DNA of 29,797 nucleotides, taken from IMG/VR virus record IMGVR_UViG_2671180378_000015; one strand, given 5' to 3'. The notes beneath the pieces are model-generated. The model ran no database searches and was not told the origin of the DNA. It saw only the letters and a list, made by a program, of their open reading frames with translations. The DNA is from a virus. Taxonomy: Duplodnaviria > Heunggongvirae > Uroviricota > Caudoviricetes. Positions 6,505 to 24,727 of this stretch are shown here, piece by piece. The position numbers and the translations under genes were made by a program. Positions within the stretch are counted from its first letter, which is position 1. The number at the start of each line of letters is the position of its first letter.

Positions 6505-6720
6505 ATGAAATCAATGGATAAGTTAACAACAGGTGTTGCCTATGGCACATCGGCGGGTAATGCTGGTTTCTGGGCATTACAGTTACTCGATAAAGTAACT
6601 CCGTCACAGTGGGCTGCAATCGGTGTGCTGGGTAGCCTGGTTTTTGGCCTGCTGACGTATCTGACAAATCTTTATTTCAAGATTAAAGAAGACAGGCGTA
6701 AGGCTGCGAGAGGAGAGTAA
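6505..6720 (+). CDS. essQ: Phage-21-type class II holin (pinholin) with dual-start MKSM motif (71 aa)
   Basis: [71 protein letters not shown]; two TM segments, charged C-terminus; RBS GGGGTGAGGA before ATG 6505. Confidence 0.85.
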
Positions 6721-6724
6721 TCCA

Positions 6725-7032
6725 ATGACTCAAGACTATGAACTGGTTGTGAAAGGAGTCCGTAATTTTGAGAATAAAGTTACGGTAACTGTAGCCTTAC
6801 AGGACAAGGAACGCTTTGACGGTGAAATTTTTGACCTGGATGTCGCCATGGACCGTGTTGAAGGAGCTGCGCTGGAGTTTTATGAGGCAGCAGCCAGAAG
6901 GAGCGTCCGGCAAGTCTTCCTGGAAGTAGCAGAAAAATTGTCAGAAAAAGTTGAGTCTTATCTGCAGCATCAGTACTCCTTTAAGATTGAAAATCCTGCC
7001 AATAAGCACGAGCGTCCTCATCATAAATATAT

Positions 7033-7036
<4 letters not shown>
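6725..7036 (+). CDS. ydfR: YdfR-like protein (DUF1327), 103 aa
   Basis: ORF track MTQDYELVVKGVRNFENKVTV...; position between holin and endolysin as in Qin. Confidence 0.7.
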
Positions 7037-8060
<1,024 letters not shown>

Positions 8061-8242
8061 GGTAATATTAAATCGGAACATTTACATCGCGGAATGTAAA
8101 ATTTAAATAAAAAGGACTCTTCCATGAGCCAAAATTCCTGAAATCTTAAGGGTAAGATAAAAGGTCTTAATCAGAATGACACGTTTTATTAATAAATAAA
8201 GCTATTCTTTCATTGCTGTGTTTTTCTTTACAAAAGTAATCC

Positions 8243-8271
8243 TTGCTATGGGTGGTTAATCATGCGTTAAT
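8243..8271 (+). promoter_or_regulatory. Candidate cspI promoter with long (about 150 nt) 5' UTR
   Basis: TTGCTA - 17 nt - GTTAAT, containing the same ATGCGTTAATG core as the cspB upstream region. Confidence 0.4.
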
Positions 8272-8422
8272 GGTGTTCTGGTTTGTTACAAATTTATCTG
8301 AAGCAGTCATTGTTATAATTTTATTATTTGTACCTCTTGAGATTTCCTTGTTGGTTTTTCTCTCTGATATTTTTTTTCGGACCATTCTGCCCAAGGGCTA
8401 ATTTCTTCAAAAGGTAATAATT

Positions 8423-8635
8423 ATGTCTAACAAAATGACTGGTTTAGTGAAATGGTTTAACCCTGAAAAAGGTTTTGGTTTCATCACGCCGAAAGATGGC
8501 AGCAAAGATGTGTTTGTCCATTTCTCAGCAATTCAGAGCAACGATTTCAAAACATTAACTGAGAATCAGGAAGTTGAATTTGGTATTGAGAACGGACCTA
8601 AAGGTCCTGCCGCTGTTCATGTAGTGGCGCTTTGA
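8423..8635 (+). CDS. cspI: CspI cold-shock protein (70 aa)
   Basis: ORF track [45 protein letters not shown]... Confidence 0.9.
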
Positions 8636-8834
8636 GGTAGACAATATTACAAACCATATTCACTTTAGATGCCCGTGTTGTCATGGTTCCCAGTATAGAA
8701 CATCATCTTTTGATGTTTCTGACATGAATCCTTTCGGGGCAAAATGTATCTTTTGTAAATCAATGATGATTACATTTGATAATATTTCACAATACTTAAA
8801 TGCCAGCCGTCTGTCGTTGGATTTAAAAAAGTGA
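8625..8834 (+). other. Open frame encoding a second Cys-rich zinc-ribbon-like peptide lacking a canonical start (possible non-canonical start or decayed paralog)
   Basis: Frame reads ...HFRCPCCHGSQYRTSSFDVSDMNPFGAKCIFCKSMMITFDNISQYLNASRLSLDLKK stop 8832-8834; first ATG (8724) lies after the first Cys cluster; strong terminator immediately downstream. Confidence 0.3.
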
Positions 8835-8840
8835 AAATGA

Positions 8841-8864
8841 AGGCTCCTTCGGGAGCTTTTTTGC
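8841..8864 (+). terminator. Rho-independent terminator
   Basis: aggctcc ttcg ggagct followed by tttttt. Confidence 0.65.
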
Positions 8865-8906
8865 TTGGTATCTATTCGATGGATACTCACATACTACGGT
8901 AACATC

Positions 8907-9137
8907 ATGAAAAAAATCATAGTTTTTTTTAACTCTGAACCAGCAGTGGTAGTGCCAGCGATGACTGGAGTTAACACCATCATGCGTGAATATCCAAATG
9001 GCGAAAAAACACACCTTACTGTAATGGCCGCAGGGTTTCCATCTCTGACCGGAGATCATAAAGTCATTTATGTAGCCGCGGATCGACATGTTACTTCAGA
9101 AGAAATTCTGGAAGCAGCAATAAGGCTCTTGAGTTGA
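8907..9137 (+). CDS. Hypothetical small prophage protein (76 aa)
   Basis: ORF track frame 8865-9137; likely start MKKIIVFFNSEPAVVVP at ATG 8907; no recognisable domain. Confidence 0.4.
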   Translation: MKKIIVFFNSEPAVVVPAMTGVNTIMREYPNGEKTHLTVMAAGFPSLTGDHKVIYVAADRHVTSEEILEAAIRLLS

Positions 9138-9305
9138 TTTGATGCTATTGTATTGATAATTCAGGAAAATTCTCTTTGTCTGTTTGTGTAAAATTTAGAC
9201 TATCGTATGTTGATTATTGCGATGTTTCATCTTATCTTTTACACGTTTGCACCATATAATCGACTTACTGTGTAACTGGAAAGTCATAACAGACTAAAAG
9301 AGGAA

Positions 9306-9482
9306 ATGATGAATATTGAAAACTTAAAAACAAAAGCAGAAGCAGATATTTCTGAATATATAACAAAAAAAATTATTGAACTTAAGAAAAAGACCGGGAA
9401 AGAAGTTACCAGTATTCAGTTTACCGCACGGGAAAAAATGACGGGTCTTGAAAGCTATGATGTCAAGATTAATTTAATCTGA
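9306..9482 (+). CDS. gnsB: GnsA/GnsB-family small protein (58 aa); not in ORF track
   Basis: Hand translation MMNIENLKTKAEADISEYITKKIIELKKKTGKEVTSIQFTAREKMTGLESYDVKINLI; RBS AAGAGGAA before ATG; upstream TATAAT box. Confidence 0.7.
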   Translation: MMNIENLKTKAEADISEYITKKIIELKKKTGKEVTSIQFTAREKMTGLESYDVKINLI

Positions 9483-9633
9483 TGTATTCAATAATAAAAT
9501 TTATCCATAAACCTCGTTTTTTCGGGGTTTTGTTATATTTGAATGGTTCCGAATATCTAAATCACAATTGTTGATGGTTTTTATTAAACCAATGCAGTCC
9601 GGCTCAGGAGTGAGAGAAGCCGGACGTTATGGT

Positions 9634-10044
9634 TTAGCGTGGTAAGATCTGTGTAGTTTTCTGGATGCTTTCAGTAAATAGTAATGAGTTATCAAAGGCA
9701 TAGTAATATCTTTGGTGTTCCTGGATATTTGTAACCCATCGGAAAACTCCTGCTTTAGCAAGATTTTCCCTGTATTGTTGAAATGTGATTTCTTTTGATT
9801 TCAACTTATTATAGGAGGTCTCTATAAGATGTTTGTTTCTGGAGAATTTAACATTTACAACCTTTTTGAGTCCTTTTACTAACACTATGTTGTCGTTTTC
9901 TAACACAATGTGAATATTATCTGTGGCTAAATAGTAAATATAAAGTGAGACATTGTGACGTTTTAGCTCAGAATAAAATAATTCACAGTTTAAATCTTTA
10001 CGCACTTGATCGAATATTTCTTTAAAAATGGCAGCCTGAGCCAT
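9634..10044 (-). CDS. ydfO: YdfO/YbcV-family protein (DUF1398), 136 aa
   Basis: ORF track; start taken at [19 protein letters not shown] (ATG at 10044) with GGAAGG RBS. Confidence 0.7.
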
Positions 10045-10344
10045 TGGTAAACCTTCCATGTGATACGATGGCGCGTAGTTAGCATTATCGTGTTTATTGT
10101 TTCAATCTGGTCTGACCTCTTTGTGTTTTGTTGATGATTTATGTCAAATATTAAGCCTGTTTTTAATGAATAGTGTTGATTGCGTAACAAAATTGAGCCT
10201 TGCTGGCATCCAGGAGGGATATGCAACCGACAGATGTATGTAAGGTCGATGTACTCAAACTTTCATACTTTTCCTCTTTTATGCAGTAAGATTTGAAGTA
10301 ATATTTTAACCGCTAGATGACGAGCAAACGCATGGAGCGACAAA

Positions 10345-10551
10345 ATGAATAAAGAACAATCTGCTGATGAAGTCTCGTTGGATCTGATTCGTGTAAAAAA
10401 TATGCTTAATAGCACCATTTCTATGAGTTACCCGGATGTTGTAATTGCATGTATAGAACATCAGGTGTCTCTGGAAGCATTCAGGGCAATTGAGGCAGCG
10501 TTGGTGAAGCACGATAAGAATTCGAAGGATTATTCCCTGGTGGTTGACTGA
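10345..10551 (+). CDS. Hypothetical small protein (68 aa)
   Basis: ORF track [21 protein letters not shown]...; GGAG 7 nt upstream of ATG. Confidence 0.45.
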
Positions 10552-10571
10552 GCACCATAACTGCTAATCAT

Positions 10572-10739
10572 TCAAACTATTTCACCTGTGACAGAGTCAA
10601 TATCGCATTCTGTCACTGTCAGGCTAATACAGAGCTGCAATTCAACTACTGCAATGTCCTCGTAATTAGGTGAATTTACAATATCGTCCTGTTCGGATGC
10701 CGGTTGCATTGCTGAAGATGAGGCATTTATGGTTCGCAT
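10572..10739 (-). CDS. Hypothetical small acidic protein (55 aa); not in ORF track
   Basis: Hand translation of minus strand MRTINASSSAMQPASEQDDIVNSPNYEDIAVVELQLCISLTVTECDIDSVTGEIV; GAGGGG RBS 6 nt before ATG. Confidence 0.25.
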   Translation of the reverse strand: MRTINASSSAMQPASEQDDIVNSPNYEDIAVVELQLCISLTVTECDIDSVTGEIV

Positions 10740-10876
10740 ATTTTCCCCTCATGCTCGTCAGTCCTGTGCGTAGGAAGAAACAGGACACTCACACTAATTT
10801 GTGTGGGCATGCTGTGATGTCCTTCTGAATTATTCCTATGCCATTATGTAAAGCGCTGTATCAGATGCTCATCACG

Positions 10877-10900
10877 GCTGTCAGGCTGTCAGGCTGTCGG
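10877..10900 (+). repeat. Tandem octamer repeat gctgtcag / gctgtcag / gctgtcgg
   Basis: Three consecutive 8-mers read directly from the sequence, about 30 nt upstream of the putative cosN. Confidence 0.7.
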
Positions 10901-11123: not shown

Positions 11124-11651
11124 ATGTCAAATGTGAGCGGGATCGGTGATGCTTATTACTGGAGTGTTTTTAAAATCGCTGAGGCCTTTGGGCTTCACCG
11201 GGACACAGTAAAAAAACGGCTCCTCGCGGCTAACACTCCTGTGGCTGCGACTGTCAGGGGGAACCCCGTTTACGCCCTGCAGCATGTCGGGCCAGCCCTG
11301 TTTAGTGTGAAGCATGAGGCAGCAGACTCTGTTCATGATCCATCCCGTATGGAGCCGAAAGAGAGAAAGGACTGGTACCAATCTGAAAATGAAAGGATCA
11401 AGCTGGAAAAGGAGCAGCGAAAACTCATCCCCGTTGATGAAGTAGTCATCGTCTATTCGTCCATGAGAAAGGCTGTCGTCCAGGTTCTGGAGACAATTCC
11501 GGATGTTCTTGAACGCGATTGCGCCCTGACTCCTCAGGCCGTCGGCGTTGTACAGCAGGCCATTGATGACCTGCGATACACTCTTCAGGAAAAATCCTAC
11601 GAGGCTTGTGCTGCTGAATTAATTCCTGATGAGGAAGGAGAGAGTCTCTAG
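11124..11651 (+). CDS. Terminase small subunit (Nu1-like, winged-HTH DNA-binding N-terminus)
   Basis: ATG 11124 with GGAG RBS; N-terminal HTH-like IAEAFGLHRDTVKKRLLAANTPV similar to lambda Nu1; immediately upstream of large terminase. Confidence 0.7.
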   Translation: MSNVSGIGDAYYWSVFKIAEAFGLHRDTVKKRLLAANTPVAATVRGNPVYALQHVGPALFSVKHEAADSVHDPSRMEPKERKDWYQSENERIKLEKEQRKLIPVDEVVIVYSSMRKAVVQVLETIPDVLERDCALTPQAVGVVQQAIDDLRYTLQEKSYEACAAELIPDEEGESL

Positions 11652-11659
11652 GAGGAATA

Positions 11660-13759
11660 ATGGGTTTTTCATCAGCCCGAAATTTGGGAAGGGACATATC
11701 GGCAGGATTTTCCCCACCACGTCGCATGCCGATTTCGGAGGCTGTTAAAAAATTCATGCGTGTTCCCAAGGGGGCTGGTAACTCGGTGCCATGGGATCCT
11801 GAACTGACACCCTACATCATTGAGCCCATGAACTGCCTGGCATCGCGTGAATACGATGCGGTGATTTTTGTTGGTCCTGCGCGAACAGGGAAGACCATTG
11901 GTCTGATCGATGGATGGATTGTCTATACCATCGTTTGCGATCCTTCGGACATGCTCGTTGTGCAGATGACCGAAGATAAGGCCCGCGAGCATTCTAAAAA
12001 GCGCCTCGACAGAACGTTCAGAAGCAGTGCGGCGGTAAAGAAAAGAATGAGTCCACGTCGTAACGACAATAATGTCCATGATAAGACGTTCAGGGATGGC
12101 TCGTTCCTTAAAATTGGTTGGCCCTCGGTCAACATTATGTCGTCGTCGGATTACCGGTTTGTCGCCTTAACCGATTACGACCGTTTTCCGGAGAATATCG
12201 ACAGCGAGGGTGATGGTTTCTCCCTGGCCTCAAAACGTACCACCACATTTATGTCCGCTGGGATGACTCTGGTGGAGAGCTCGCCGGGACGTGACATCTG
12301 CGACAGCAAATGGCGACGTAAGTCGCCTCATGAAGCGCCACCGACGACTGGTATTCTTTCCCTTTACAATCGTGGTGACCGCCGCCGCTGGTACTGGTCA
12401 TGTCCGCACTGCGGTGAATATTTTCAGCCAGCCATGGATGCCATGACCGGCTACCGTAATGAACCGGATCCCTTTAAAGCCAGTGAGGCGGCGTATCTAC
12501 TTTGCCCGCACTGCAGCGGCATTATCACTGCGGAGAAAAAGCGTGAGCTCAATAGTGCAGGAGTCTGGTTGCGTGAAGGTCAGGTCATTGATCGTAACGG
12601 CAACGTTTCCGGTGAACCGCGCCGCTCCCGTATCGCCAGTTTCTGGATGGAAGGGCCAGCTGCTGCGTATCAGACCTGGGCGCAACTGGTTTACAAATTA
12701 CTGACTGCAGAACAGGAGTATGAAGCGACAGGAAGCGAAGAAACACTCAGGGCGGTTATCAACACCGACTGGGGATTGCCTTATCTTCCTCGTGCCAGCA
12801 TGGAGCAACGAAAAAGTGAACTGCTTGAGCAGCGGGCAGAGCCAGTTCCTTCCCGCAGTGTGCCGGATGGCGTTAATTTCCTTGTGGCGACAGTGGATGT
12901 GCAGGCGGGACGTCATCGCCGTTTTGTGGTTCAGGTAACGGGCTATGGCAGTCGTGGCGAACGCTGGATTATTGATCGTTACAACATCACGCAGTCATTG
13001 CGCAGTGACTGCGACGGGGAGAGCCAGCGAATTGATCCGGCCAGCTATCCGGAAGACTGGGATGTCCTGCTGACGGATGTTTTTCATAAAAGCTGGCCGC
13101 TGGCCTCCGATCCTTCTCAACAAATGCGACTGATGGCAATGGCGGTGGACTCCGGCGGTGAAGACGGGGTCACTGATAATGCCTATAAATTCTGGCGTCG
13201 TTGCCGTCGTGATGGCCTTGGTAAACGTATTTACCTGTTTAAGGGTGACAGCATCCGGCGCGCAAAACTGATCAGCCGTACATTCCCTGATAACACCGGA
13301 CGAACGGGCCGCCGGGCGCAGGCCGCAGGTGATGTGCCGCTCTGGCTTCTTCAGACGGATGCCCTGAAAGACCGGGTGAATAACGCGTTATGGCGTGACT
13401 CGCCAGGTCCAGGCTATGTGCATTTCCCTGACTGGCTGGGGAGCTGGTTTTACGACGAACTGACGTATGAAGAGCGGAGCAGTGACGGGAAATGGAGTAA
13501 GCCGGGTCGCGGTGCCAACGAAGCTTTTGACCTGATGGTGTATGCCGAGGCTCTGGTCATTCTGCATGGATACGAAAAGATCCGCTGGCCGGATGCACCG
13601 GAGTGGGCGAGCCGGGAGACCTGGCTGGAGTGTGTCCAGGACAGTACCGAACCGTCATCCTCACCGGAACCGGTATCCACGCCTGTTAAAAAACAAAAAC
13701 GGAAGAAAACAGTAACTGACGATGTTAACCCCTGGCTGACTTCCGGAGGATGGTTATGA
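11660..13759 (+). CDS. Terminase large subunit (lambda gpA-like), 699 aa
   Basis: ORF track 699 aa; size and position; RBS AGGAGGAATA before ATG. Confidence 0.85.
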   Translation: MGFSSARNLGRDISAGFSPPRRMPISEAVKKFMRVPKGAGNSVPWDPELTPYIIEPMNCLASREYDAVIFVGPARTGKTIGLIDGWIVYTIVCDPSDMLVVQMTEDKAREHSKKRLDRTFRSSAAVKKRMSPRRNDNNVHDKTFRDGSFLKIGWPSVNIMSSSDYRFVALTDYDRFPENIDSEGDGFSLASKRTTTFMSAGMTLVESSPGRDICDSKWRRKSPHEAPPTTGILSLYNRGDRRRWYWSCPHCGEYFQPAMDAMTGYRNEPDPFKASEAAYLLCPHCSGIITAEKKRELNSAGVWLREGQVIDRNGNVSGEPRRSRIASFWMEGPAAAYQTWAQLVYKLLTAEQEYEATGSEETLRAVINTDWGLPYLPRASMEQRKSELLEQRAEPVPSRSVPDGVNFLVATVDVQAGRHRRFVVQVTGYGSRGERWIIDRYNITQSLRSDCDGESQRIDPASYPEDWDVLLTDVFHKSWPLASDPSQQMRLMAMAVDSGGEDGVTDNAYKFWRRCRRDGLGKRIYLFKGDSIRRAKLISRTFPDNTGRTGRRAQAAGDVPLWLLQTDALKDRVNNALWRDSPGPGYVHFPDWLGSWFYDELTYEERSSDGKWSKPGRGANEAFDLMVYAEALVILHGYEKIRWPDAPEWASRETWLECVQDSTEPSSSPEPVSTPVKKQKRKKTVTDDVNPWLTSGGWL

Positions 13760-13968
13760 ACCAGAATGATATCGAAGCCATGATTCAGCGTTATACGGAA
13801 GCTGAAATGGCGGTGCTGGACGGAAAATCCGTCACCTTTAATGGTCAGCAGATGACCATGGAAAACTTATCTGAGATCCGGCAGGGACGGCAGGAGTGGG
13901 AGCGCCGCCTTGCGGCTCTGATTACACGACGACGGGGGCATCCCGGGTACCGGCTGGCGAGGTTCTGA
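13756..13968 (+). CDS. Head-tail joining protein (gpW-like), about 70 aa
   Basis: Small ORF between terminase and portal; start overlaps terminase stop and its stop overlaps the portal start (TGATG); RRRG motif near C-terminus as in lambda W. Confidence 0.55.
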   Translation: MNQNDIEAMIQRYTEAEMAVLDGKSVTFNGQQMTMENLSEIRQGRQEWERRLAALITRRRGHPGYRLARF

Positions 13969-15476
13969 TGGCAATTCTTGATGATGTGATTGGCGTTTTT
14001 TCACCAGGATGGAAAGCGGCAAGGCTGCGTTCCCGTGCGGTGATCCAGGCTTATGAGGCCGTAAAAACGACGCGGACACACAAAGCCCGACGGGAGAACC
14101 GAACTGCCGACCAGTTAAGCCAGTACGGGGCCGTGTCGTTACGTGAGCAGGCCCGTTACCTTGATAACAACCACGATCTGGTTATTGGTGTATTTGACAA
14201 GCTGGAAGAACGGGTGGTGGGGAAAAACGGGATTATTGTCGAGCCACATCCGGTATTACGCAATGGGGCCATTGCCCGTGACCTGGCTGCGGAGATTCGC
14301 ACCCGATGGAGTGAATGGTCTGTCAGCCCGGAAGTCACCGGGCAGTTTACCCGTCCGATGCTGGAACGTCTGATGCTTCGTACCTGGCTGCGCGATGGTG
14401 AGGTGTTTGCCCAGATGGTTTCCGGGCGCATAAACAGCCTGGCGCCTTCTGCCGGTGTTCATTTCTGGCTGGAGGCGCTCGAGCCGGACTTTATTCCCAT
14501 GACTAGTGATGAGAGCAACAGGCTGAATCAGGGCGTGTTTGTTGATGACTGGGGGCGTCCCGAAAAATATCTGGTGTATAAAAGCCGTCCCGTATCCGGA
14601 CGGCAGATGGAAACCAAAGAAGTGGATGCAGAGCGAATGCTGCATCTTAAATTTGTTCGCCGTCTGCACCAGATGCGCGGGACGTCTTTGTTGTCCGGTG
14701 TGCTGATCCGCCTCAGTGCCCTGAAAGAATATGAAGATTCTGAGCTGACTGCAGCAAGGATCGCCGCTGCTCTGGGGATGTACATCAGGAAAGGCGACGG
14801 GCAGAGCTATGAACCGGATGGTAATGGCAGAAAGGAGAATGAACGTGAGCTTACCATTCAGCCGGGCATTATTTACGACGATCTGAAACCCGGCGAAGAA
14901 ATCGGAATGGTGAAGTCGGATCGCCCCAATCCTAACCTTGAAACTTTTCGTAATGGTCAGTTGCGTGCCGTGGCGGCGGGCAGTCGTCTGAGTTTTTCCA
15001 GTACAGCGCGCAACTATAACGGCACTTACAGCGCCCAGCGTCAGGAGCTGGTTGAATCCACTGATGGCTACCTGATCCTGCAGGACTGGTTTATTGGTGC
15101 CGTCACCCGCCCGATGTATCGTGCATGGCTGAAACAGGCTGTGGCATCCGGTGTTATCAGGCTACCCCGCGATCTTGACCGTTCTTCACTGTATACCGCG
15201 GTGTATTCCGGACCAGTGATGCCGTGGATTGACCCTGTTAAGGAGGCTGAGGCCTGGAAAATCCAGATTCGTGGTGGAGCGGCGACAGAATCAGACTGGG
15301 TACGTGCTGGTGGTCGTAATCCGGATGATGTCAAACGTCGGCGCAAGGCCGAAATTGATGAAAACCGCAAGCTGGATCTGGTATTTGATACCGATCCGGC
15401 CAGTGATAAAGGAGGCAGTAGTGCCGCAACGAAACGACAGGAGCCGCAGCACACCGACGACCAGTCCGAAGAATAA
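13968..15476 (+). CDS. Portal protein (lambda gpB-like), about 502 aa
   Basis: ORF track frame 13896-15476; start taken at ATG 13968 (MAILDDVIGVFSPGW) overlapping W stop; size and position. Confidence 0.8.
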   Translation: MAILDDVIGVFSPGWKAARLRSRAVIQAYEAVKTTRTHKARRENRTADQLSQYGAVSLREQARYLDNNHDLVIGVFDKLEERVVGKNGIIVEPHPVLRNGAIARDLAAEIRTRWSEWSVSPEVTGQFTRPMLERLMLRTWLRDGEVFAQMVSGRINSLAPSAGVHFWLEALEPDFIPMTSDESNRLNQGVFVDDWGRPEKYLVYKSRPVSGRQMETKEVDAERMLHLKFVRRLHQMRGTSLLSGVLIRLSALKEYEDSELTAARIAAALGMYIRKGDGQSYEPDGNGRKENERELTIQPGIIYDDLKPGEEIGMVKSDRPNPNLETFRNGQLRAVAAGSRLSFSSTARNYNGTYSAQRQELVESTDGYLILQDWFIGAVTRPMYRAWLKQAVASGVIRLPRDLDRSSLYTAVYSGPVMPWIDPVKEAEAWKIQIRGGAATESDWVRAGGRNPDDVKRRRKAEIDENRKLDLVFDTDPASDKGGSSAATKRQEPQHTDDQSEE

Positions 15477-15489
15477 TTCCTGGTTCAGG

Positions 15490-17448
15490 ATGCAGGCTGG
15501 TCACCAGAGTGACGCGGATATTTATATTTATGACGAGATTGGTTTCTGGGGTGTTACAGCGAAGCAGTTTATCAGTGATCTGAATGCACTGGGCGATATC
15601 ACCCACATTAATCTCCATATTAATTCACCGGGTGGCGATGTCTTTGAAGGCATCGCCATTTTTAATGCGCTGAAAACACATGGTGCGTCCATTACCGTTT
15701 ATGTCGACGGTGTGGCGGCGTCAATGGCGTCGGTCATTGCGATGGTAGGAAACCCGGTCATTATGCCGGAAAACTCCTTCATGATGATTCATAAACCATT
15801 TGGCTTTACGGGCGGTGATGCGGAGGACATGCGCACCTATGCCGACCTGCTCGATAAAGTTGAGGCGGTTCTGTTACCCGCTTATGCACAGAAAACCGGG
15901 AAAACCACCGATGAAATTGCTGCCATGCTGGCGGATGAGACCTGGATGTCCGGTGCCGAATGTCTGGCACAGGGATTTGCTGATCAGGTGACACCAGCCG
16001 TTAAGGCAATGGCATGTATTCAGTCAAAACGTACAGAGGAATTTAAAAAGATGCCGGAATCCATTCGAAATATGATTACTCCGCCACGCAACAGTGCTCC
16101 ACGCGTACAGGATGATGGACCTGCAGCCTCCCGGACGCCAGTGCAGGCAGCAGCACCCGTGGTGGATGAAAACAGCATCCGTGCGCAGGTCCTGGCAGAG
16201 CAAAAAGCGCGTGTAAACGGTATTAATGATCTGTTTGCCATGTTTGGCGGGCGTTATCAGTCGTTGCAGGCTCAGTGTCTTGCCGATCCTGAATGTTCGC
16301 TGGAGCAGGCCCGCGAAAAGCTGTTGAACGAGATGGGGCGCGAGTCCACGCCATCCAATAAAAATACCCCGGCTCATATTTATGCCGGTAACGGTAATTT
16401 TGTGGGGGACGGGATCCGCCAGGCGCTGATGGCGCGCGCCGGGTTTGAAAAAACTGAACGTGATAATGTCTACAACGGGATGACCCTGCGTGAATATGCC
16501 CGTATGTCACTGACTGAACGTGGTATTGGTGTTTCCAGTTATAACCCGATGCAGATGGTCGGTGCGGCGTTCACACACAGTACGTCTGACTTCGGTAATA
16601 TTCTGCTGGATGTTGCGAACAAAGCCATTCTGCAGGGCTGGGAAGATGCCCCTGAAACCTATGAACAGTGGACGCGGAAAGGTCAGTTGTCTGATTTTAA
16701 AATTGCCCATCGTGTGGGTATGGGGGGCTTCAGTGCTCTGCGTCAGGTGCGTGAAGGGGCAGAATATAAATACGTCACCACCGGAGATAAACAGGCCACT
16801 ATTGCACTGGCGACCTATGGCGAGCTGTTCAGTATCACCCGTCAGGCCATTATCAATGATGATCTGAATATGCTGACCGATGTCCCGATGAAGCTGGGCC
16901 GTGCGGCGAAATCCACTATTGCCGATCTGGTTTATGCCATTCTGACGTCTAACCCGAAAATCTCCACAGATAATGTAAGTCTGTTCGATAAAGCGAAACA
17001 TGCAAACGTACTGGAGAGCGCGGCAATGGACGTGGCATCGCTGGATAAAGCCCGCCAGTTGATGCGCGTTCAGAAAGAGGGTGAGCGTCATCTGAATATT
17101 CGTCCTGCGTTCGTACTGGTACCGACGGCGATGGAGTCTGTTGCTAACCAGGTCATTCGCTCCTCAAGTGTCAAGGGGGCTGACATTAACGCCGGTATTA
17201 TTAACCCGGTGAAAGATTTTGCGACCGTTATTGCAGAGCCTCGTCTTGATGATAACAGCCAGACCACCTTCTACCTGGCTGCGTCCAAAGGCTCCGATAC
17301 GATTGAAGTGGCTTATCTCAACGGTGTGGATACGCCATATATTGATCAGATGGAGGGCTTCAGTGTGGATGGCGTGACAACGAAAGTGCGTATTGACGCT
17401 GGTGTTGCGCCAGTTGATCACCGCGGCCTGGTGAAATGTACGGCGTAA
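15490..17448 (+). CDS. Prohead protease (ClpP/S14-like) fused to scaffold-like linker and major capsid protein (about 652 aa)
   Basis: N-terminal ClpP-like motifs (INSPGGDVFEGIAIFNAL, VAASMASVIA with catalytic-type Ser); C-terminal 330 aa resembles major capsid proteins; start ATG 15490 just after portal stop. Confidence 0.75.
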   Translation: MQAGHQSDADIYIYDEIGFWGVTAKQFISDLNALGDITHINLHINSPGGDVFEGIAIFNALKTHGASITVYVDGVAASMASVIAMVGNPVIMPENSFMMIHKPFGFTGGDAEDMRTYADLLDKVEAVLLPAYAQKTGKTTDEIAAMLADETWMSGAECLAQGFADQVTPAVKAMACIQSKRTEEFKKMPESIRNMITPPRNSAPRVQDDGPAASRTPVQAAAPVVDENSIRAQVLAEQKARVNGINDLFAMFGGRYQSLQAQCLADPECSLEQAREKLLNEMGRESTPSNKNTPAHIYAGNGNFVGDGIRQALMARAGFEKTERDNVYNGMTLREYARMSLTERGIGVSSYNPMQMVGAAFTHSTSDFGNILLDVANKAILQGWEDAPETYEQWTRKGQLSDFKIAHRVGMGGFSALRQVREGAEYKYVTTGDKQATIALATYGELFSITRQAIINDDLNMLTDVPMKLGRAAKSTIADLVYAILTSNPKISTDNVSLFDKAKHANVLESAAMDVASLDKARQLMRVQKEGERHLNIRPAFVLVPTAMESVANQVIRSSSVKGADINAGIINPVKDFATVIAEPRLDDNSQTTFYLAASKGSDTIEVAYLNGVDTPYIDQMEGFSVDGVTTKVRIDAGVAPVDHRGLVKCTA

Positions 17449-17534: not shown

Positions 17535-17858
17535 ATGGCAAAGAATTTTGTAGAAGAAGGAAAAACGGTGGCGATTGTTGCCAGTGCAGCCATCAGCAGC
17601 GGAGATCTGGTGCAGGTGGGGGATGTTTTTGCGGTGGCGCTGACCGATATTCCACAGGGAGAAACAGGCGACGGCATAACCGAAGGTGTGTTTATGCTGC
17701 CTAAGCTGAAAACGGATGACATGAAAACGGGTAAGAAGGTTTATCTGAAGTCAGGAAAAGTTCAGCTGACTAACAGCGGCTCTGAGCCGCTGGTCGGGGT
17801 TGTCTGGGCAGATGCCGGAACCAGTGCAGAAGAAGTGCCGGTAAAACTCAATGTCTGA
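17535..17858 (+). CDS. Small head protein, possibly decoration/cement (DUF2190-like), 107 aa
   Basis: ATG 17535 with GGAG RBS; Gly/Val-rich small protein directly after capsid gene. Confidence 0.45.
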   Translation: MAKNFVEEGKTVAIVASAAISSGDLVQVGDVFAVALTDIPQGETGDGITEGVFMLPKLKTDDMKTGKKVYLKSGKVQLTNSGSEPLVGVVWADAGTSAEEVPVKLNV

Positions 17859-18126
17859 TCCCTTTTCCCGGCTGGCAGCGCGTATGGATGCGATCACGGT
17901 CAGAAAGATGGGAAAGACAGCCTCGATTAATGATGTCGATATGATTGTGATCCCGGGAGAAACACTGGCAGAGCTGAATGCTCTGTCCGGACCTGCGGTC
18001 TCTCTGGTGGTGTTTTCTTCGGGATACCGCCCACGGCGCGGGGATCGCGTTGTTTATGACGGACAACAATGGACGGTCACACGGCATGAACGTTTTAACG
18101 GTAAGCCAATGATCTTTATTGAGTAA
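17851..18126 (+). CDS. Putative head completion / head-tail adaptor protein (91 aa)
   Basis: ORF track; position between capsid module and tail gene Z. Confidence 0.4.
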   Translation: MSDPFSRLAARMDAITVRKMGKTASINDVDMIVIPGETLAELNALSGPAVSLVVFSSGYRPRRGDRVVYDGQQWTVTRHERFNGKPMIFIE

Positions 18127-20653: not shown

Positions 20654-23600
20654 TTTGGGGATTGATGCGGCAGAGTTTAAAAATGAAATTCCCCGTATCA
20701 AAAACCTTCTGAATGGTGCAGCCAGCGATGCAGAACGGTCTTCTGCCCGTATGCAGCGTTTTATGGAGCGTCAGACTCAGGCCGCCCGGCAGACAACGCA
20801 GGCAGCTTCTTCGGCTGCAACAGCCGCATCCGTCCATGCGCAGACGGTGGAGAAGAACGCACAGGCTCATGAACGCATGGCCCGCGAGGTGGAGAAAACC
20901 CGCCAGCGCATGGAGGCACTGAGCCAGAAAATGCGCGAGGAACAGGCGCAGGCCATGGCTCTGGCGGAGGCTCAGGATAAAGCGGCTGCTGCGTTTTATC
21001 GTCAGATTGACAGTGTGAAACAGGCCAGTGCGGGGCTGCAGGAATTACAGCGTATTCAGCAGCAGATCCGACAGGCCAGAAACAGTGGCGGGATTGGTCA
21101 GCAGGATTATCTGGCGCTGATTTCTGAGGTTACTGCGAAAACCCGTGTTCTTACACAGGCTGAGGAAGAGGCTACCCGACAGAAAGTGGCGTTTATCCGT
21201 CAGCTTAAAGAGCAGGCAACCCGCCTGAATCTTTCATCTTCTGAGTTGCTTCGTGCTAAGGCAGCCCAGCTGGGGGTAAGCAGTGCTGCAGAAGTGTATA
21301 TCCGCAAAATGGAGCAGGCAGGAAAAGCCACGCATTCGCTGGGTCTGAAAAGTGCAGCAGCCCGCCAGGAGATAGGCGTTCTGATAGGTGAACTGGCCCG
21401 CGGCAATTTAGGGGCGCTGAGGGGATCCGGGATAACGCTGGCTAACCGTGCCGGATGGATAGACACACTGATGTCACCGAAAGGCATGATGCTTGGCGGG
21501 GTTATTGGCGGTATTGCCGCGGCCGTCTATGGTCTGGGTAAAGCCTGGTATGACGGTCAGAAGGAGGGGGAAGAATTTAACCGCCAGTTGTCGCTGACGG
21601 GGCATTATGCCGGAGTCACTGCCGGGCAGCTGTGGACGCTCAGTCGTGCTATTTCCGGGAATGGTATCACGCAACATGCTGCAGCCGGTGCGCTGGCTCA
21701 GGTGGTGGGGAGTGGTGCATTTCGTGGAAACGATATCGGTATGGTGGCGAGAGTTGCCGCACAGATGGAGCGATCGGTTGGCCAGTCGGTCAGCGATACC
21801 ATAAATCAGTTTAAGCGGCTGAAGGATGATCCTGTAAATGCCGCGAAGGCTCTGGACAATGAGCTGCATTTTCTTACTGCCACTCAGCTTGAGCAGATAC
21901 GCGTCCTTGGGGAGCAGGGGCGGTCCAGTGATGCTGCACGGATAGCCATGTCTGCACTGGCAGAGGAAACCGGTCGGCGTACTGCGGATATTGATAATAA
22001 CCTCAATGCGCTTGGCAGTACGCTGAAGTATCTGTCTGATTTGTGGAGTCGTTTCTGGGATGCGGCCATGAATATTGGTCGTGAAGACTCGCTGGATGAA
22101 CAGATTGCCGCTTTACAGGAGAAAGTGTCGCGGGCGAAAAGACTCCCCTGGACGGCATCATCTTCTCAGGTTGAATACGATCAGCAGCGTCTTAACGATC
22201 TTCAGGAGAAAAAACGCCAGAAGGATTTGCAGGATGCAAAAGAGCAGGCAGAGCGGAATTATCAGGAGCAACAGAAACGCCGTAATGCTGAAAATGCTGC
22301 ACTGAACCGGATGAATGAAACGGAAGCAGCACGACATCAGCGTGAAATTGCGCGTATTAATGCCATGCAGTACGCCGATCAGGCTGTCAGGGATGCGGCG
22401 ATACAACGTGAAAATGAACGTTACGAGAAAGCCCTGGCATCCGGTAAGAAAAAAACACGCGAAACCCGTAATGATGAGGCCACCCGGTTATTGCTGCAGT
22501 ACAGTCAGCAACAGGCACAGGTGGAAGGACAGATTGCTGCTGCCAGACAGTCAGCAGGCATTGCCACGGAAAGGATGACAGAAGCGCATAAACAGCTTCT
22601 GGCTCTGCAGCAGCGCATCAGCGACCTGGACGGGAAAAAACTGACGGCAGATGAAAAGAGTGTGCTGGCCCGTAAAGATGAACTGATTCAGGCACTGACG
22701 CTGCTGGATGTAAAACAGCAGGAGCTTCAGAAACAGACGGCACTCAACGAGCTGAAGAAAAAAACAATTCAGCTGACCAGTCAACTGGCTGAAGAAGAGC
22801 GCGCTCAGCGTCAGCAACATGACCTGGATATCGCCACGGTGGGTATGGGTGATCAGCAGCGACAGCGATATCAGGTACAACTGAGTCTTCGCCAGAAATA
22901 CCAGCAACAGCTGGAGCAGTTGAGGCGGGATAGTGAGCAGAAAGGGACATATAACACGGATGACTACAGAAAGGCCGAGCAGGCGCTGACGGAGAGCCTG
23001 AACCGACAACTGAATGAGAATCGCCGTTACTGGCAACAGCTTGAAGTTGTGCAGGGTAACTGGAAAAACGGAGTCCTGCGTGCATTTCAGGATTTTACCG
23101 TGGATGCAGATAATACGGCAGAAACAGCAGAACAGGTGTTCTCGTCAGCCTTCAGCAACATGGGAAATGGCCTGGCAACTTTTGTCACTACCGGCAAACT
23201 CAATTTCAAATCCTTCACCTCTTCTGTGCTGTCAGATATGGCGAAAATCCTGGCGCAGGCAACCATGATGAAATCGATAAAAGGGATTGGCAGTGTACTG
23301 GGATTTGATCTCAGCAGCCTTTCCCTGAATGCCAATGGGGGGATTTATCAGTCTGCTGATTTGAGTCGTTACAGTGGCACGGTGGTTAACCGTCCGACGT
23401 TTTTTGCTTTTGCAAAAGGCGCGGGTGTGATGGGGGAAGCGGGACCTGAAGCCATTCTGCCATTGCGTCGTGGTGCTGACGGTAAGCTGGGGGTTGTGGC
23501 GGATATTGGGGGGTCAGGTATGGCGATGTTTTCCCCGCAGTACAACATCGAGATCAATAACGATGGCACGAACGGGCAGATAGGTCCGGCTGCCCTGAAG

Positions 23601-23690
23601 GCGGTTTATGACCTCGGGAAAAAAGCGGCAGCGGACTTTATGCAACAGCAGGCCCGTGATGGTGGTCGGTTAAGTGGAGCATATCGGTAA
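20625..23690 (+). CDS. Tail tape measure protein (lambda gpH-like), about 1021 aa
   Basis: Long Ala/Gln-rich coiled-coil protein; C-terminus NNDGTNGQIGPAALKAVYD matches lambda H; start ATG 20625 with GGAGG RBS. Confidence 0.85.
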   Translation: MDQIANLVIDLGIDAAEFKNEIPRIKNLLNGAASDAERSSARMQRFMERQTQAARQTTQAASSAATAASVHAQTVEKNAQAHERMAREVEKTRQRMEALSQKMREEQAQAMALAEAQDKAAAAFYRQIDSVKQASAGLQELQRIQQQIRQARNSGGIGQQDYLALISEVTAKTRVLTQAEEEATRQKVAFIRQLKEQATRLNLSSSELLRAKAAQLGVSSAAEVYIRKMEQAGKATHSLGLKSAAARQEIGVLIGELARGNLGALRGSGITLANRAGWIDTLMSPKGMMLGGVIGGIAAAVYGLGKAWYDGQKEGEEFNRQLSLTGHYAGVTAGQLWTLSRAISGNGITQHAAAGALAQVVGSGAFRGNDIGMVARVAAQMERSVGQSVSDTINQFKRLKDDPVNAAKALDNELHFLTATQLEQIRVLGEQGRSSDAARIAMSALAEETGRRTADIDNNLNALGSTLKYLSDLWSRFWDAAMNIGREDSLDEQIAALQEKVSRAKRLPWTASSSQVEYDQQRLNDLQEKKRQKDLQDAKEQAERNYQEQQKRRNAENAALNRMNETEAARHQREIARINAMQYADQAVRDAAIQRENERYEKALASGKKKTRETRNDEATRLLLQYSQQQAQVEGQIAAARQSAGIATERMTEAHKQLLALQQRISDLDGKKLTADEKSVLARKDELIQALTLLDVKQQELQKQTALNELKKKTIQLTSQLAEEERAQRQQHDLDIATVGMGDQQRQRYQVQLSLRQKYQQQLEQLRRDSEQKGTYNTDDYRKAEQALTESLNRQLNENRRYWQQLEVVQGNWKNGVLRAFQDFTVDADNTAETAEQVFSSAFSNMGNGLATFVTTGKLNFKSFTSSVLSDMAKILAQATMMKSIKGIGSVLGFDLSSLSLNANGGIYQSADLSRYSGTVVNRPTFFAFAKGAGVMGEAGPEAILPLRRGADGKLGVVADIGGSGMAMFSPQYNIEINNDGTNGQIGPAALKAVYDLGKKAAADFMQQQARDGGRLSGAYR

Positions 23691-24019
23691 TGGAGACGTT
23701 TCACTGGAAAGTGCGCCCGGATATGAATGTGGTATCAGAGCCGAAAGTGGTGACAGTGAAGCTGGGCGATGGTTATGAACAGCGTCGTGCGGCGGGACTG
23801 AATAACCAGTTGTCGACTTACAGCGTGACGATACGTGTTCGTAAATGTGACCACCCATCTTTAAAAGCCTTTCTGGAACGGCACGGTGGCGTCCGTGCAT
23901 TTCAGTGGACGCCACCTTATGACTGGAAACCGATCAGGGTGGTTTGTCGTAAATGGTCGGCAAGCGTGGGGGCGCTGTGGGTAACCATAACGGCAGATTT
24001 TGAACAGGTCGTGGCATAG
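23690..24019 (+). CDS. Minor tail protein M (lambda gpM-like), 109 aa
   Basis: 109 aa as lambda M; TAATG overlap with tape measure stop. Confidence 0.8.
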   Translation: METFHWKVRPDMNVVSEPKVVTVKLGDGYEQRRAAGLNNQLSTYSVTIRVRKCDHPSLKAFLERHGGVRAFQWTPPYDWKPIRVVCRKWSASVGALWVTITADFEQVVA

Positions 24020-24028
24020 GAGGCTCTG

Positions 24029-24727
24029 ATGCAGGATATTCCACAGGAAACACATCATGAGACGACACGCCTCACTCAGTCAGCCCAGGTGGTGCTCTGG
24101 GAAATCGATCTGACAGAGGTCGGTGGTGAACGTTATTTTTTCTGTAATGAGCAGAACGAAAAAGGTGAGCCGGTTATCTGGCAGGGGCGGCAGTATCAGG
24201 TATACCCCATTCAGGGGACGGGATTTGAACTGAACGGCAAGGGCAGTGCTGCCCGTCCGACACTGACGGTTTCTAACCTGTACGGTATGGTCACCGGGAT
24301 GGCGGAAGATCTGCAGAGTCTGGTCGGCGGAACGGTGGTCCGGCGTAAGGTTTACGCCCGTTTTCTGGATGCGGTGAACTTCGTCAACGGAAACAGTGAC
24401 GCCGATCCGGAGCAGGAGGTGATCAGCCGCTGGCGCATTGAGCAGTGCAGCGAACTGAGCGCGGTGAGTGCCTCTTTTGTACTGTCCACGCCGACGGAAA
24501 CGGACGGCGCTGTTTTTCCGGGACGTATCATGCTGGCCAACACCTGCACCTGGACCTATCGCGGTGATGAGTGCGGTTATCACGGTCCGGCAGTCGCGGA
24601 TGAATATGACCAGCCGACGTCCGATATCACGAAGGATAAATGCAGCAAATGCCTGAGCGGCTGTAAGTTTCGCAATAACGTCGGCAACTTTGGCGGCTTC
24701 CTTTCCATTAACAAACTTTCGCAGTAA
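24029..24727 (+). CDS. Minor tail protein L (lambda gpL-like), 232 aa
   Basis: 232 aa as lambda L; C-terminal Cys cluster (CTWTYRGDECGY...CSKCLSGC). Confidence 0.8.
   Translation: MQDIPQETHHETTRLTQSAQVVLWEIDLTEVGGERYFFCNEQNEKGEPVIWQGRQYQVYPIQGTGFELNGKGSAARPTLTVSNLYGMVTGMAEDLQSLVGGTVVRRKVYARFLDAVNFVNGNSDADPEQEVISRWRIEQCSELSAVSASFVLSTPTETDGAVFPGRIMLANTCTWTYRGDECGYHGPAVADEYDQPTSDITKDKCSKCLSGCKFRNNVGNFGGFLSINKLSQ

What the first reader, a model, noticed from the sequence alone, without database searches (positions are those of the whole stretch)
15490..17448. Single-gene fusion of ClpP-type prohead protease, linker and major capsid protein in an otherwise lambda-like module
Terminase, W, portal and all tail genes look lambda-like, but the lambda C-Nu3-D-E head genes are replaced by one 652-codon ORF with an N-terminal ClpP/S14-like protease domain and a C-terminal capsid-protein-like domain. 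This is modular mosaicism and implies self-processing of a protease-capsid polyprotein. The small proteins after it (17535-18126) may be decoration and head-completion proteins.
Basis: partly seen in the sequence, partly recalled or inferred. Interest (0 to 1): 0.45.

Follow-up and report, generated by a model that had tools for sequence, protein, structure and literature searches.

The report
Known protease–scaffold–capsid fusion gene
This is the well-known "tripartite" head gene of Gifsy-2-type lambdoid prophages, found in over a third of complete E. coli genomes; one reading frame encodes the head protease, a scaffold segment and the capsid protein, and a strictly conserved internal start signal suggests it also makes a shorter scaffold–capsid protein.

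Summary
The ORF is real. It is one uninterrupted frame ending at 17448, with an N-terminal ClpP-like protease domain and a C-terminal HK97-type (Mu gpT-like) capsid domain. It matches NCBIfam NF045540, [quoted passage not shown], end to end (984 bits, cutoff 475). It is 100% identical in protein to phage mEp460_ev081 and 70% identical to the Gifsy-2 tripartite capsid gene studied by cryo-EM. It covers at least 80% of the query in 1988 of 5426 complete E. coli genomes. The finding is therefore already known.

There are two corrections. The start is most likely GTG 15421 (675 codons, strong AGGAGG upstream, used by RefSeq), not ATG 15490. The whole packaging/head module, not only C-Nu3-D-E, is Gifsy-2-type: TerL and portal are only 23–24% identical to lambda, and the lambda-like part begins at gene Z.

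There is one addition. An in-frame ATG at 16051 with an AGGA motif 10 nt upstream is invariant in all 83 homologues examined. The G completing that motif is the most conserved third-codon position in the gene, although the amino acid varies (E/Q/K). This points to a nested scaffold–capsid product, as in lambda C/Nu3. That product is predicted, not shown.

The parts
15421..17448 (+). Residue numbers below use the 652-aa numbering.
   Evidence: Open frame. AGGAGG at 15410-15415, 5 nt before GTG. PGAP CDS in O26:H11 11368 maps to 15421-17448. NF045540 984 bits. PHROG 133 end to end.
15514..15999 (+). ClpP-like (S14) prohead protease domain, aa ~9-170. Predicted catalytic Ser78 (15721-15723) and His101 (15790-15792). 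Invariant Glu150 (15937-15939) sits where ClpP has its catalytic Asp.
   Evidence: Pfam CLP_protease 4.6e-36. NF045542 'head maturation protease, ClpP-related' 1.3e-64. PDB ClpP hits with AASM and IH(K/Q)P motifs aligned. S78, H101 and E150 invariant in 37 homologues. AF2 pLDDT 70-90 for this domain.
16024..16056 (+). Conserved motif SKRxEEFxxMP at the end of the protease region. F-x-x-X-P is shared by the whole ClpP-like prohead protease family; only this clade has Met at X.
16036..16041 (+). Predicted internal Shine-Dalgarno (GAGGAA; AGGA core at 16037-16040), 10 nt before the internal ATG.
   Evidence: The codon is xAG in 61 of 61 dereplicated homologues with E/Q/K at the site. The single exception keeps AGGAG by a different codon pair. 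It is the most conserved third-codon position of 591 columns. P ~1e-26 under own-gene codon usage, treating the related genes as independent.
16051..17448 (+). Predicted nested gene: an in-frame internal start (ATG 16051, Met188) giving a 465-aa linker-scaffold-capsid protein.
   Evidence: ATG then CCN invariant in 83 of 83 homologues at 53-100% aa identity. Local mRNA is less structured than the gene average in 61 of 62 genes. Analogous SD-ATG in U35-protease-type fusions and in the chimera L115. Not shown experimentally.
16075..16164 (+). Hypervariable Pro/Ala-rich linker, aa ~196-225, with indels between homologues.
   Evidence: Alignment A1. AF2 pLDDT below 50, no secondary structure.
16165..16341 (+). 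Conserved helical segment, aa ~226-284; the candidate scaffolding (delta-like) domain.
   Evidence: Conserved in A1. AF2 helices 227-250, 257-265 and 271-283 at pLDDT 72-87. MD8 paper assigns the equivalent region as scaffold.
16384..17445 (+). Major capsid protein region, aa ~299-652. The Pfam capsid core is aa 354-649 (16549-17436). The maturation cleavage site was not determined.
   Evidence: Pfam PF25209 6e-55 and Mu-like_gpT 3.7e-8. Profile hit to solved capsid proteins 8rkc/8rkx 'Mu GpT domain-containing protein' at 3.5e-10 and 9jod at 3.8e-6. 70% identity to Gifsy-2 over the whole protein, visibly higher across the capsid region.
17535..17858 (+). Head decoration (cement) protein, 107 aa.
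   Evidence: Pfam Phage_cement_2 4.2e-20. PHROG 122 'head decoration' 1.1e-46. 62% identical to Gifsy-2 STM1034. No sequence similarity to lambda D.
17851..18126 (+). 91-aa head completion / head-tail joining protein (FII position).
   Evidence: Pfam 'Gifsy-2' family 4.9e-18 and weak Phage_attach 2e-3. PDB 2PP6 1.8e-20. Annotated 'Hc1 head closure protein' in mEp460_ev081.
11124..15476 (+). Rest of the Gifsy-2-type packaging/head block: DUF1441 small terminase (11124-11651), gpA-family large terminase (11660-13759), 70-aa head-tail adaptor (13756-13968), lambda-family portal (13968-15476).
   Evidence: Pfam, PHROGs, PGAP coordinates mapped. Same gene order in Gifsy-2 and MD8. Identities to lambda.

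Best explanation
This is the orthologue, in an E. coli lambdoid prophage of the mEp460/cdtI type, of the Gifsy-2 'tripartite capsid gene'.

One reading frame (most likely GTG 15421 to 17448) encodes four parts in order. These are a ClpP-like serine protease, a variable Pro/Ala linker, a helical scaffolding segment and an HK97-fold (Mu gpT-like) major capsid protein.

The capsid domains assemble a procapsid with the scaffold and protease parts inside. The protease then removes itself and the scaffold. The downstream 107-aa decoration protein binds the expanded shell.

I further infer that the ORF is a nested gene pair. Ribosomes also start at the conserved internal SD + ATG (16036-16053) and make a 465-aa scaffold-capsid protein, analogous to HK97 gp5 with its delta domain. 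The full-length protease-bearing form would then be a minority subunit. That would set the protease dose and target the protease to the procapsid by covalent linkage, as lambda does with C and Nu3.

Shown here: the ORF, the domains, the orthology, and the sequence-level constraint on the internal SD/ATG. Taken from literature on homologues: the tripartite reading of the gene and the trimeric decoration protein at three-fold axes. From my own recollection of the Gifsy-2 abstract, which I could not read: T=7 capsid geometry. Inferred: the internal initiation, the product ratio and the cleavage sites.
For: Identity. NF045540 matches end to end at 984 bits against a cutoff of 475. Both Pfam domains are strong. 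PHROG 133 matches end to end. The protein is 100% identical to the mEp460_ev081 'Major head protein'. It is 70% identical over its full length to the Gifsy-2 protein, with identical gene order around it. It is 57% identical to MD8 'protease and major capsid protein'. PGAP uses the fusion name in E. coli; 1988 of 5426 complete genomes carry at least 80% of the gene.

Protease. Ser78 and His101 are invariant and align with the ClpP catalytic residues.

Capsid. A profile of the C-terminal domain hits solved Mu-gpT-type capsid proteins at 3.5e-10.

Literature. [quoted passage not shown] PMC8538268 lists Gifsy-2 among phages with a trimeric decoration protein at three-fold axes.

Nested start.
- ATG-CCN is invariant in 83 of 83 genes across Enterobacterales, Pasteurellaceae, Shewanella, Psychromonas and Pseudomonas.
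- The upstream codon is always GAG, CAG or AAG. In 18 control columns with conserved E/Q/K, the fraction ending in G is 0.22-0.76.
- That position is the most conserved third-codon position of 591 columns.
- Across the wider protease family the same position is mostly Ala, Val, Leu, Pro, Ile or Thr, and Met in only 10 of 131.
- A second fusion family with an unrelated U35 protease has an SD-ATG in its otherwise unconserved linker in 23 of 26 genes.
- In chimera L115 the SD-ATG follows the scaffold-capsid module.
- Local mRNA structure is low at the internal ATG.
Against: No experimental data on this gene or on any product starting at Met188 were available. The primary Gifsy-2 paper could not be read, so I do not know the mature N-terminus or whether an internal start was already considered or excluded.

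The AF2 model of the capsid domain failed (pLDDT below 50), so the HK97 fold rests on sequence-profile evidence and on published modelling of homologues.

SD-like strings can arise from amino-acid constraints alone. Met114, inside the protease domain, also has a strong anti-SD score because of Gly-Gly-Asp codons.

The homologues are phylogenetically related, so the 1e-26 figure overstates independence.

The third catalytic residue is Glu, not the Asp of ClpP.
Confidence: 0.85

Rival explanations
1. Pure polyprotein. Every capsid subunit is made as the full-length protease-scaffold-capsid protein, so about 415 protease domains sit in each T=7 procapsid, and all processing is post-translational. 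The conserved ATG and AGGA serve something other than initiation, such as a protein-level motif plus a translational pause or an RNA element.
For: This is the simplest reading of a single ORF, and it is how the MD8 paper describes gp5. F-x-x-X-P is a protein-level motif of the whole protease family. Amino-acid-driven SD-like strings exist elsewhere in the gene, at Met114.
Against: It does not explain why a synonymous third position is the most conserved in the gene while the encoded residue varies E/Q/K. It does not explain why Met is invariant only in this fused clade and is Ala or Val in stand-alone proteases. It does not explain why an unrelated-protease fusion family and the chimera L115 carry an SD-ATG at the start of the scaffold module.
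Confidence: 0.3
2. The fusion is an artefact or a decayed gene: a sequencing or assembly frameshift, or a mutation in a cryptic prophage, joined a separate protease gene to a separate capsid gene.
For: The window lies in a prophage whose left arm resembles the cryptic prophage Qin.
Against: The same uninterrupted ORF occurs in 16 isolated, plaque-forming or induced phage records at 98-100% nt identity. It occurs in about 2000 complete E. coli genomes and in 80 loci from many genera at 53-75% aa identity. It is a curated NCBIfam family.
Confidence: 0.01
3. The C-terminal half is not the shell protein but another head component, and the true major capsid protein is encoded elsewhere.
For: The AF2 model of this half was uninformative. 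A single-sequence PDB search found nothing for it.
Against: Pfam capsid family at 6e-55. Profile hit to solved Mu-gpT-type capsid proteins. HHpred and Phyre2 results for MD8 gp5. No other capsid-like ORF lies between the portal and the tail genes.
Confidence: 0.02

Closest known systems
Salmonella phage Gifsy-2 tripartite capsid gene (STM1034.3n in NC_010393; Effantin et al. 2010, Virology 402:355)
   Same: 70% aa identity over the full length. Same three parts in the same order. Same neighbours: small and large terminase, small adaptor, portal, fusion gene, 107-aa decoration protein (62% id), small head-completion protein, then Z, U, V, G, T, H.
   Different: The host differs. The Pro/Ala linker differs in sequence and length. 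Nothing functionally distinct was detected.
E. coli phages mEp460, mEp460_ev081, cdtI, Ayreon, Tritos, HannyBb, phi458
   Same: 98.4-99.8% nt identity. The protein is identical to that of mEp460_ev081. The whole right part of the window is 95-97% identical to these phages.
   Different: Annotations differ (major head protein, protease/scaffold, head maturation protease, 'Nu3'). Most records start the gene at the ATG equivalent to 15490.
Pseudomonas phage MD8 gp5 (PMC8508860)
   Same: 57% identity and the same tripartite architecture, followed by decoration and head-tail joining genes. The same internal ATG and AGGAG are present.
   Different: Longer N-terminal extension. High-GC host.
Lambda C / Nu3 / D / E
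   Same: The same functions in the same genomic slot. The protease belongs to the same peptidase clan, a point from general knowledge; the PGAP record only names lambda C as an S49 peptidase. HHpred links the MD8 homologue to the gpC protease region. Nu3 is translated from an internal in-frame start of C, which is the logic proposed here.
   Different: No BLAST-level similarity. In lambda the capsid protein E is a separate gene and D lies before it. Here the capsid protein is fused and the decoration gene follows. FI is absent.
HK97 gp4 protease + gp5 (delta domain + capsid protein)
   Same: The predicted internal product (scaffold segment fused to the capsid protein, removed by a prohead protease) is organised like gp5.
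   Different: The HK97 protease is a separate gene of the U35/S78 type, and HK97 has no decoration protein. The capsid domain here is closer to Mu gpT than to gp5.
NF045541-type fusions (U35 protease + scaffold + capsid), e.g. Ralstonia phage YO194_2
   Same: The scaffold-capsid part is homologous (35% id; NF045541 aligns to aa 197-649). An internal SD-ATG sits at the protease/scaffold boundary.
   Different: A different, unrelated protease domain. The score is below that family's cutoff (399 against 525), so this gene is not a member.
Phage Mu gpI/gpZ + gpT, and herpesvirus UL26/UL26.5
   Same: Nested protease/scaffold genes. The Mu gpT-type capsid protein is the closest solved relative of the capsid domain. 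The nested scheme is reviewed in the bioRxiv paper 10.64898/2026.09.13.751334.
   Different: The capsid protein is a separate gene in those systems.

Membership tests
NCBIfam NF045540, ClpP-like prohead protease/major capsid protein fusion protein | Whole-protein HMM score above the curated cutoff, matched end to end | tested here: met
   984 bits against a cutoff of 475; aa 9-651 match profile positions 2-651 of 652. PGAP gives this name to the identical gene.
ClpP-like (S14) prohead protease | Pfam/NCBIfam domain score above cutoff | tested here: met
   CLP_protease 124.8 bits (cutoff 20.2). NF045542 217 bits (cutoff 120).
ClpP-like (S14) prohead protease | Catalytic Ser and His present | tested here: met
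   Ser78 in AASM and His101 in MIHKP align with the ClpP catalytic residues and are invariant in 37 homologues.
ClpP-like (S14) prohead protease | Catalytic Asp of the triad | tested here: inconclusive
   The aligned residue is an invariant Glu150, with a variable Asp149 next to it. Whether Glu completes the triad cannot be told from sequence.
ClpP-like (S14) prohead protease | Proteolytic activity and self-removal from the procapsid | not testable with these tools
   Needs biochemistry or virion mass spectrometry.
HK97-fold major capsid protein (Mu gpT-like, Pfam PF25209) | Family HMM above cutoff and homology to a solved capsid protein | tested here: met
   PF25209 187.8 bits (cutoff 27) and Mu-like_gpT 33.5 bits (cutoff 20.1). 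Profile hits to 8rkc/8rkx at 3.5e-10 and 9jod at 3.8e-6.
HK97-fold major capsid protein | Three-dimensional HK97 fold | tested here: inconclusive
   AF2 with 37 sequences gave pLDDT below 50 for aa 285-652. Published Phyre2 and HHpred modelling of the MD8 homologue supports the fold.
Gifsy-2-type head module | Orthologous fusion gene plus conserved neighbours | tested here: met
   70% identity for the fusion protein and 62% for the decoration protein, with identical gene order.
Lambda head module (C, Nu3, D, E) | Detectable sequence similarity to lambda C, Nu3, D or E | tested here: not met
   Best BLASTP E-value 0.11 against C; nothing against D or E.
Nested protease/scaffold genes (lambda C/Nu3 type) | Conserved in-frame internal start codon with a ribosome-binding site at the protease/scaffold boundary | tested here: met
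   ATG invariant in 83 of 83 genes. The SD core is under synonymous constraint. Analogous sites occur in the U35-type family and in L115.
Nested protease/scaffold genes (lambda C/Nu3 type) | A separate shorter polypeptide is actually made | not testable with these tools
   Needs initiation-site profiling, N-terminomics or Western blots.

The most novel reading that the evidence does not exclude
The 'fusion gene' is really a nested gene pair. A conserved internal Shine-Dalgarno + ATG (16036-16053) yields an abundant 465-aa scaffold-capsid protein, built like HK97 gp5. The full-length 675-aa protein would then be a minor subunit that carries the protease into the procapsid by covalent attachment to a shell subunit. 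This extends the lambda C/Nu3 and herpes UL26/UL26.5 scheme to a three-part gene. It appears to hold for at least two fusion families with unrelated proteases. I found no mention of it in the literature I could read, but I could not read the primary Gifsy-2 paper.
Probability: 0.6. Interest if true: 0.45.

Novelty: already known. Interest (0 to 1): 0.22.

Why it matters
The fusion itself adds nothing new. It is a curated protein family, was studied by cryo-EM in Gifsy-2 in 2010, and is among the commonest head genes in E. coli prophages.

It has practical value for annotation. Public records name this gene variously as protease, scaffold, Nu3 or major head protein, and they disagree on its start codon.

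The conserved internal start would matter modestly to phage-assembly specialists if confirmed. It would explain how a single ORF delivers a few protease copies and hundreds of scaffold-capsid subunits. It is cheap to test by synonymous mutation or initiation-site profiling.

Tried and rejected
- AF2 of the full 652-aa protein with a 37-sequence alignment. Only the ClpP domain and the helices at 227-283 were confident. The capsid domain had pLDDT below 50, so no fold search was run.
- A single-sequence PDB search found only ClpP for the N-terminus. A profile of the capsid domain was needed to reach solved Mu-gpT-type capsids.
- The decoration protein has no PDB relative by sequence.
- The primary Gifsy-2 paper and a lambda review were not held in the library. 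Searches for an already described internal start found only the general nested protease-scaffold literature and the MD8 paper, which does not mention one.
- A CBASS paper that ranked first in one search was irrelevant.
- I considered whether Met188 is simply a protease-family residue. This was rejected: the position is mostly Ala, Val or Leu in 131 representative relatives.
- I considered that SD-likeness alone is diagnostic. This was rejected: Met114 scores nearly as well for amino-acid reasons. The argument therefore rests on the synonymous-site test.
- I looked for the lambda G/GT slippery heptamer GGGAAAG near the G/T junction and for tandem repeats in the tape-measure gene. Neither was found.
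- The third homologue search and the second structure job were not used. The Pfam, PDB-profile and orthology evidence already answered the capsid question.
Full report
**The observation.** The frame containing the finding is open from 15229 to the stop at 17446-17448.
- Pfam places a CLP_protease domain at aa 23-168 (E 4.6e-36) and a Phage_capsid_4 domain at aa 354-649 (E 6e-55), with a weaker Mu-like_gpT hit.
- NCBIfam NF045540, [quoted passage not shown], matches aa 9-651 at 984 bits against a curated cutoff of 475.
- PHROG 133 matches end to end.

**The start codon.** The start is probably not 15490.
- GTG 15421 is in frame and has AGGAGG 5 nt upstream (anti-SD dG -11.6). ATG 15490 has no usable ribosome-binding site.
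- RefSeq annotates the 675-aa form in E. coli O26:H11 11368.
- A conserved SW[FY] motif lies upstream of 15490. In the Pseudomonas homologues it lies outside the portal overlap, and residue 1 of the 652-aa form is Ile there and in Gifsy-2.
- Relatives have SD-preceded starts 14-42 codons upstream of the conserved Trp, in most cases 19-36.

**What the window is.** The window is colinear with, and 99.5% identical position by position to, E. coli O26:H11 str. 11368 chromosome 2126367-2156163.
- The gene is 99.8% identical in DNA and 100% identical in protein to the "Major head protein" of phage mEp460_ev081.
- It is 98.4-99.5% identical to mEp460, cdtI, Ayreon, Tritos, HannyBb and phi458, and about 77% identical to genes in Stx2-converting phages.
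- It covers at least 80% of the query in 1988 of 5426 complete E. coli genomes, where PGAP gives it the fusion name.
- It is 70% identical over its full length to the Gifsy-2 protein annotated "Clp protease involved in capsid processing".
- The Gifsy-2 record has the same gene order from small terminase to tape measure and cites phage cdtI as its relative throughout.
[quoted passage not shown] - PMC8508860 describes the 57%-identical gp5 of Pseudomonas phage MD8 as protease + scaffold + capsid in one gene, with Phyre2 and HHpred support for ClpP, HK97 and Mu capsid folds.

The finding is therefore already known.

**Anatomy.** This comes from an alignment of 37 homologues at 56-96% identity and an AF2 model.
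- aa 1-170 form the ClpP fold (pLDDT 70-90). Ser78 (AASM) and His101 (MIHKP) are invariant and align with the ClpP catalytic residues. An invariant Glu150 sits where ClpP has Asp.
- aa 179-189 carry the conserved motif SKRxEEFxxMP.
- aa 196-225 are a hypervariable Pro/Ala linker with indels.
- aa 226-284 are three conserved helices (pLDDT 72-87), the likely scaffolding segment.
- aa 285-298 are a second variable linker.
- aa 299-652 are the capsid region.

AF2 failed on the capsid region (pLDDT below 50). A profile of that region does hit solved capsid proteins: 8rkc/8rkx ("Bacteriophage Mu GpT domain-containing protein") at 3.5e-10 and 9jod at 3.8e-6. I could not determine the maturation cleavage site.

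**The neighbours.**
- 17535-17858 is a decoration protein: Phage_cement_2 at 4e-20, PHROG 122 "head decoration" at 1e-46, and 62% identity to the Gifsy-2 homologue.
- 17851-18126 belongs to the 2PP6 "Gifsy-2" family (1.8e-20). It has a weak lambda FII (Phage_attach) signal and is called head closure protein in mEp460_ev081.

**Comparison with lambda.**
- Tail proteins are clearly related. By tblastn the best-segment identities are: Z 47%, U 54%, V 55%, G 33%, T 38%, M 55%, L 93%, K 96%, I 78%, J 89%. H is 22-25% over most of its length and 53% at its C-terminal 72 aa.
- TerL and portal are only 24% and 23% identical to lambda A and B.
- The small terminase (DUF1441), the adaptor, the decoration protein and the 91-aa protein show no BLAST similarity to lambda.

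The whole packaging/head block is thus Gifsy-2-type. It is joined to lambda-like tail genes at about 18130, and a second jump in identity falls between M and L at about 24020.

**A conserved internal start.** An in-frame ATG at 16051 (Met188) is preceded by GAG GAA at 16036-16041, giving AGGA 10 nt upstream. I fetched 80 homologous loci from one-genome-per-species bacterial assemblies. They span Enterobacterales, Morganellaceae, Pasteurellaceae, Shewanella, Psychromonas, Photobacterium and Pseudomonas, at 53-100% aa identity.
- In all 83 genes the ATG is present and is followed by a Pro codon.
- In 62 genes dereplicated at below 90% nt identity, the codon five positions upstream encodes E, Q or K in 61. 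It is always GAG, CAG or AAG, never GAA, CAA or AAA.
- The one exception (L088) has GGA GAC, which changes the amino acid but keeps AGGAG.
- Eighteen control columns with conserved E/Q/K have G at the third position in 22-76% of genes.
- Under each gene's own codon usage, and assuming independence, the probability is about 1e-26. The homologues are related, so this overstates independence.
- Of 591 columns with degenerate codons, this is the single most conserved third position, at 98.4%.
- The 40-nt window around the ATG is less structured than the gene average in 61 of 62 genes.

**Met188 is not needed by the protease.** In two stand-alone ClpP-like prohead proteases the motif is F..AP or F..VP. 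Among 131 representative relatives of the protease domain the residue is mostly Ala, Val, Leu, Pro, Ile or Thr, and Met in only 10, while the following Pro is nearly invariant.

**A second fusion family shows the same feature.** The NF045541-like family has an unrelated U35 protease. It carries a Met, usually Met-Pro, preceded by AAGGA, GAGGA or AGGAG at the protease/scaffold boundary in 23 of 26 genes, although that linker is otherwise unconserved. One viral contig, L115, joins a ClpP-type protease to that family's scaffold-capsid part. It has Ala at the Met188 position, and a GAGGT + ATG lies 21 codons downstream, where the U35-type internal Met sits.

**One caution.** Met114 also has a strong anti-SD score because of Gly-Gly-Asp codons. 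SD-likeness alone is therefore not evidence; the synonymous constraint is.

**How it most likely works.**
- The long form carries the protease. It is made from GTG 15421, whose start region overlaps the end of the portal gene.
- A shorter 465-aa scaffold-capsid protein is made from ATG 16051.
- Both co-assemble through their capsid domains, with scaffold and protease inside the procapsid.
- The protease then removes the internal parts. The shell expands on packaging, and the decoration protein binds.

The identity and the general pathway are well supported (about 0.95). The internal initiation is an inference from sequence constraint (about 0.6). The ratio of the two products and the cleavage sites are unknown. 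The nested logic itself is established for lambda C/Nu3, herpesvirus UL26/UL26.5 and an archaeal virus.

**Distribution of architectures.** Among the 131 representative relatives of the protease domain, 97 are 300-599 aa (the size of a protease + scaffold protein, as in lambda C), 18 are 600 aa or longer (the size of the tripartite form) and 16 are shorter than 300 aa. By size, the tripartite form is a minority within a large family.

**Verdict.** The feature is already known. The conserved internal start is a modest, testable addition.

Noticed in passing
window 15410-15476: The likely true start of the fusion gene (GTG 15421, AGGAGG at 15410-15415) lies inside the 3' end of the portal gene, a 56-nt overlap. 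Phage GenBank records mostly annotate the later ATG, while RefSeq uses the GTG.
   Followed up: yes
L089-L113 and L117 (IMG/VR contigs); L004:3329-5422: A second family of protease-scaffold-capsid fusions has a U35/HK97-type protease. It also carries a conserved internal Met, usually Met-Pro, with an SD-like motif 6-8 nt upstream at the protease/scaffold boundary (23 of 26 genes).
   Followed up: partly
L115:835-2811 (IMGVR_UViG_3300028388_000623): A chimeric fusion gene: ClpP-type protease joined to the scaffold-capsid part typical of the U35-type family. It has Ala at the Met188 position and an SD + ATG 21 codons downstream. This suggests protease domains are exchanged at the internal start.
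   Followed up: partly
window 1-10900: The left arm matches E. coli O26:H11 11368 and carries genes typical of the cryptic prophage Qin: flxA, relBE (1218-1744), hokD (1816-1971), rem, ydfU, the antiterminator ydfT (3849-4601), cspB/cspF, and the lysis genes essD/rrrQ/rzpQ (6505-8060). The window therefore looks like a Qin-like early/lysis region joined to a complete Gifsy-2/lambda-type virion module.
   Followed up: partly
window 8001-10100: A low-GC stretch (33-35% against about 52% elsewhere) lies between the lysis genes and the terminase. It holds cspI, ynfQ, ynfR, ynfN, gnsB and a DUF1398 gene on the opposite strand. It looks like a moron cluster next to cos; the phage cdtI record starts at about window 10928.
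   Followed up: no
window 23690-24724: There is a second mosaic joint inside the tail module. Z to M are 22-55% identical to lambda proteins, whereas L, K, I and J are 78-96% identical. The jump falls between M and L.
   Followed up: partly
window 22001-23000: AT skew rises to 0.285 inside the tape-measure gene, against at most 0.125 elsewhere. No tandem repeat was found there.
   Followed up: partly
window 17851-18126: Database names for this 91-aa protein are probably misnomers: 'ATP-binding sugar transporter-like' (PDB 2PP6 and Pfam) and 'DNA breaking-rejoining protein' (PGAP). Its position and weak FII similarity point to a head-completion role.
   Followed up: partly
proteins P0006, P0033, P0061, P0079: Several database proteins join this gene to terminase, portal or tail-protein domains (796-1135 aa). 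These are most likely gene-calling or assembly artefacts in draft genomes rather than real larger fusions.
   Followed up: no
window 15829-15831 (Met114): An SD-like string upstream of Met114, inside the protease domain, scores almost as well as the internal start. It is produced by conserved Gly-Gly-Asp codons and serves as a warning against using SD scores alone.
   Followed up: yes
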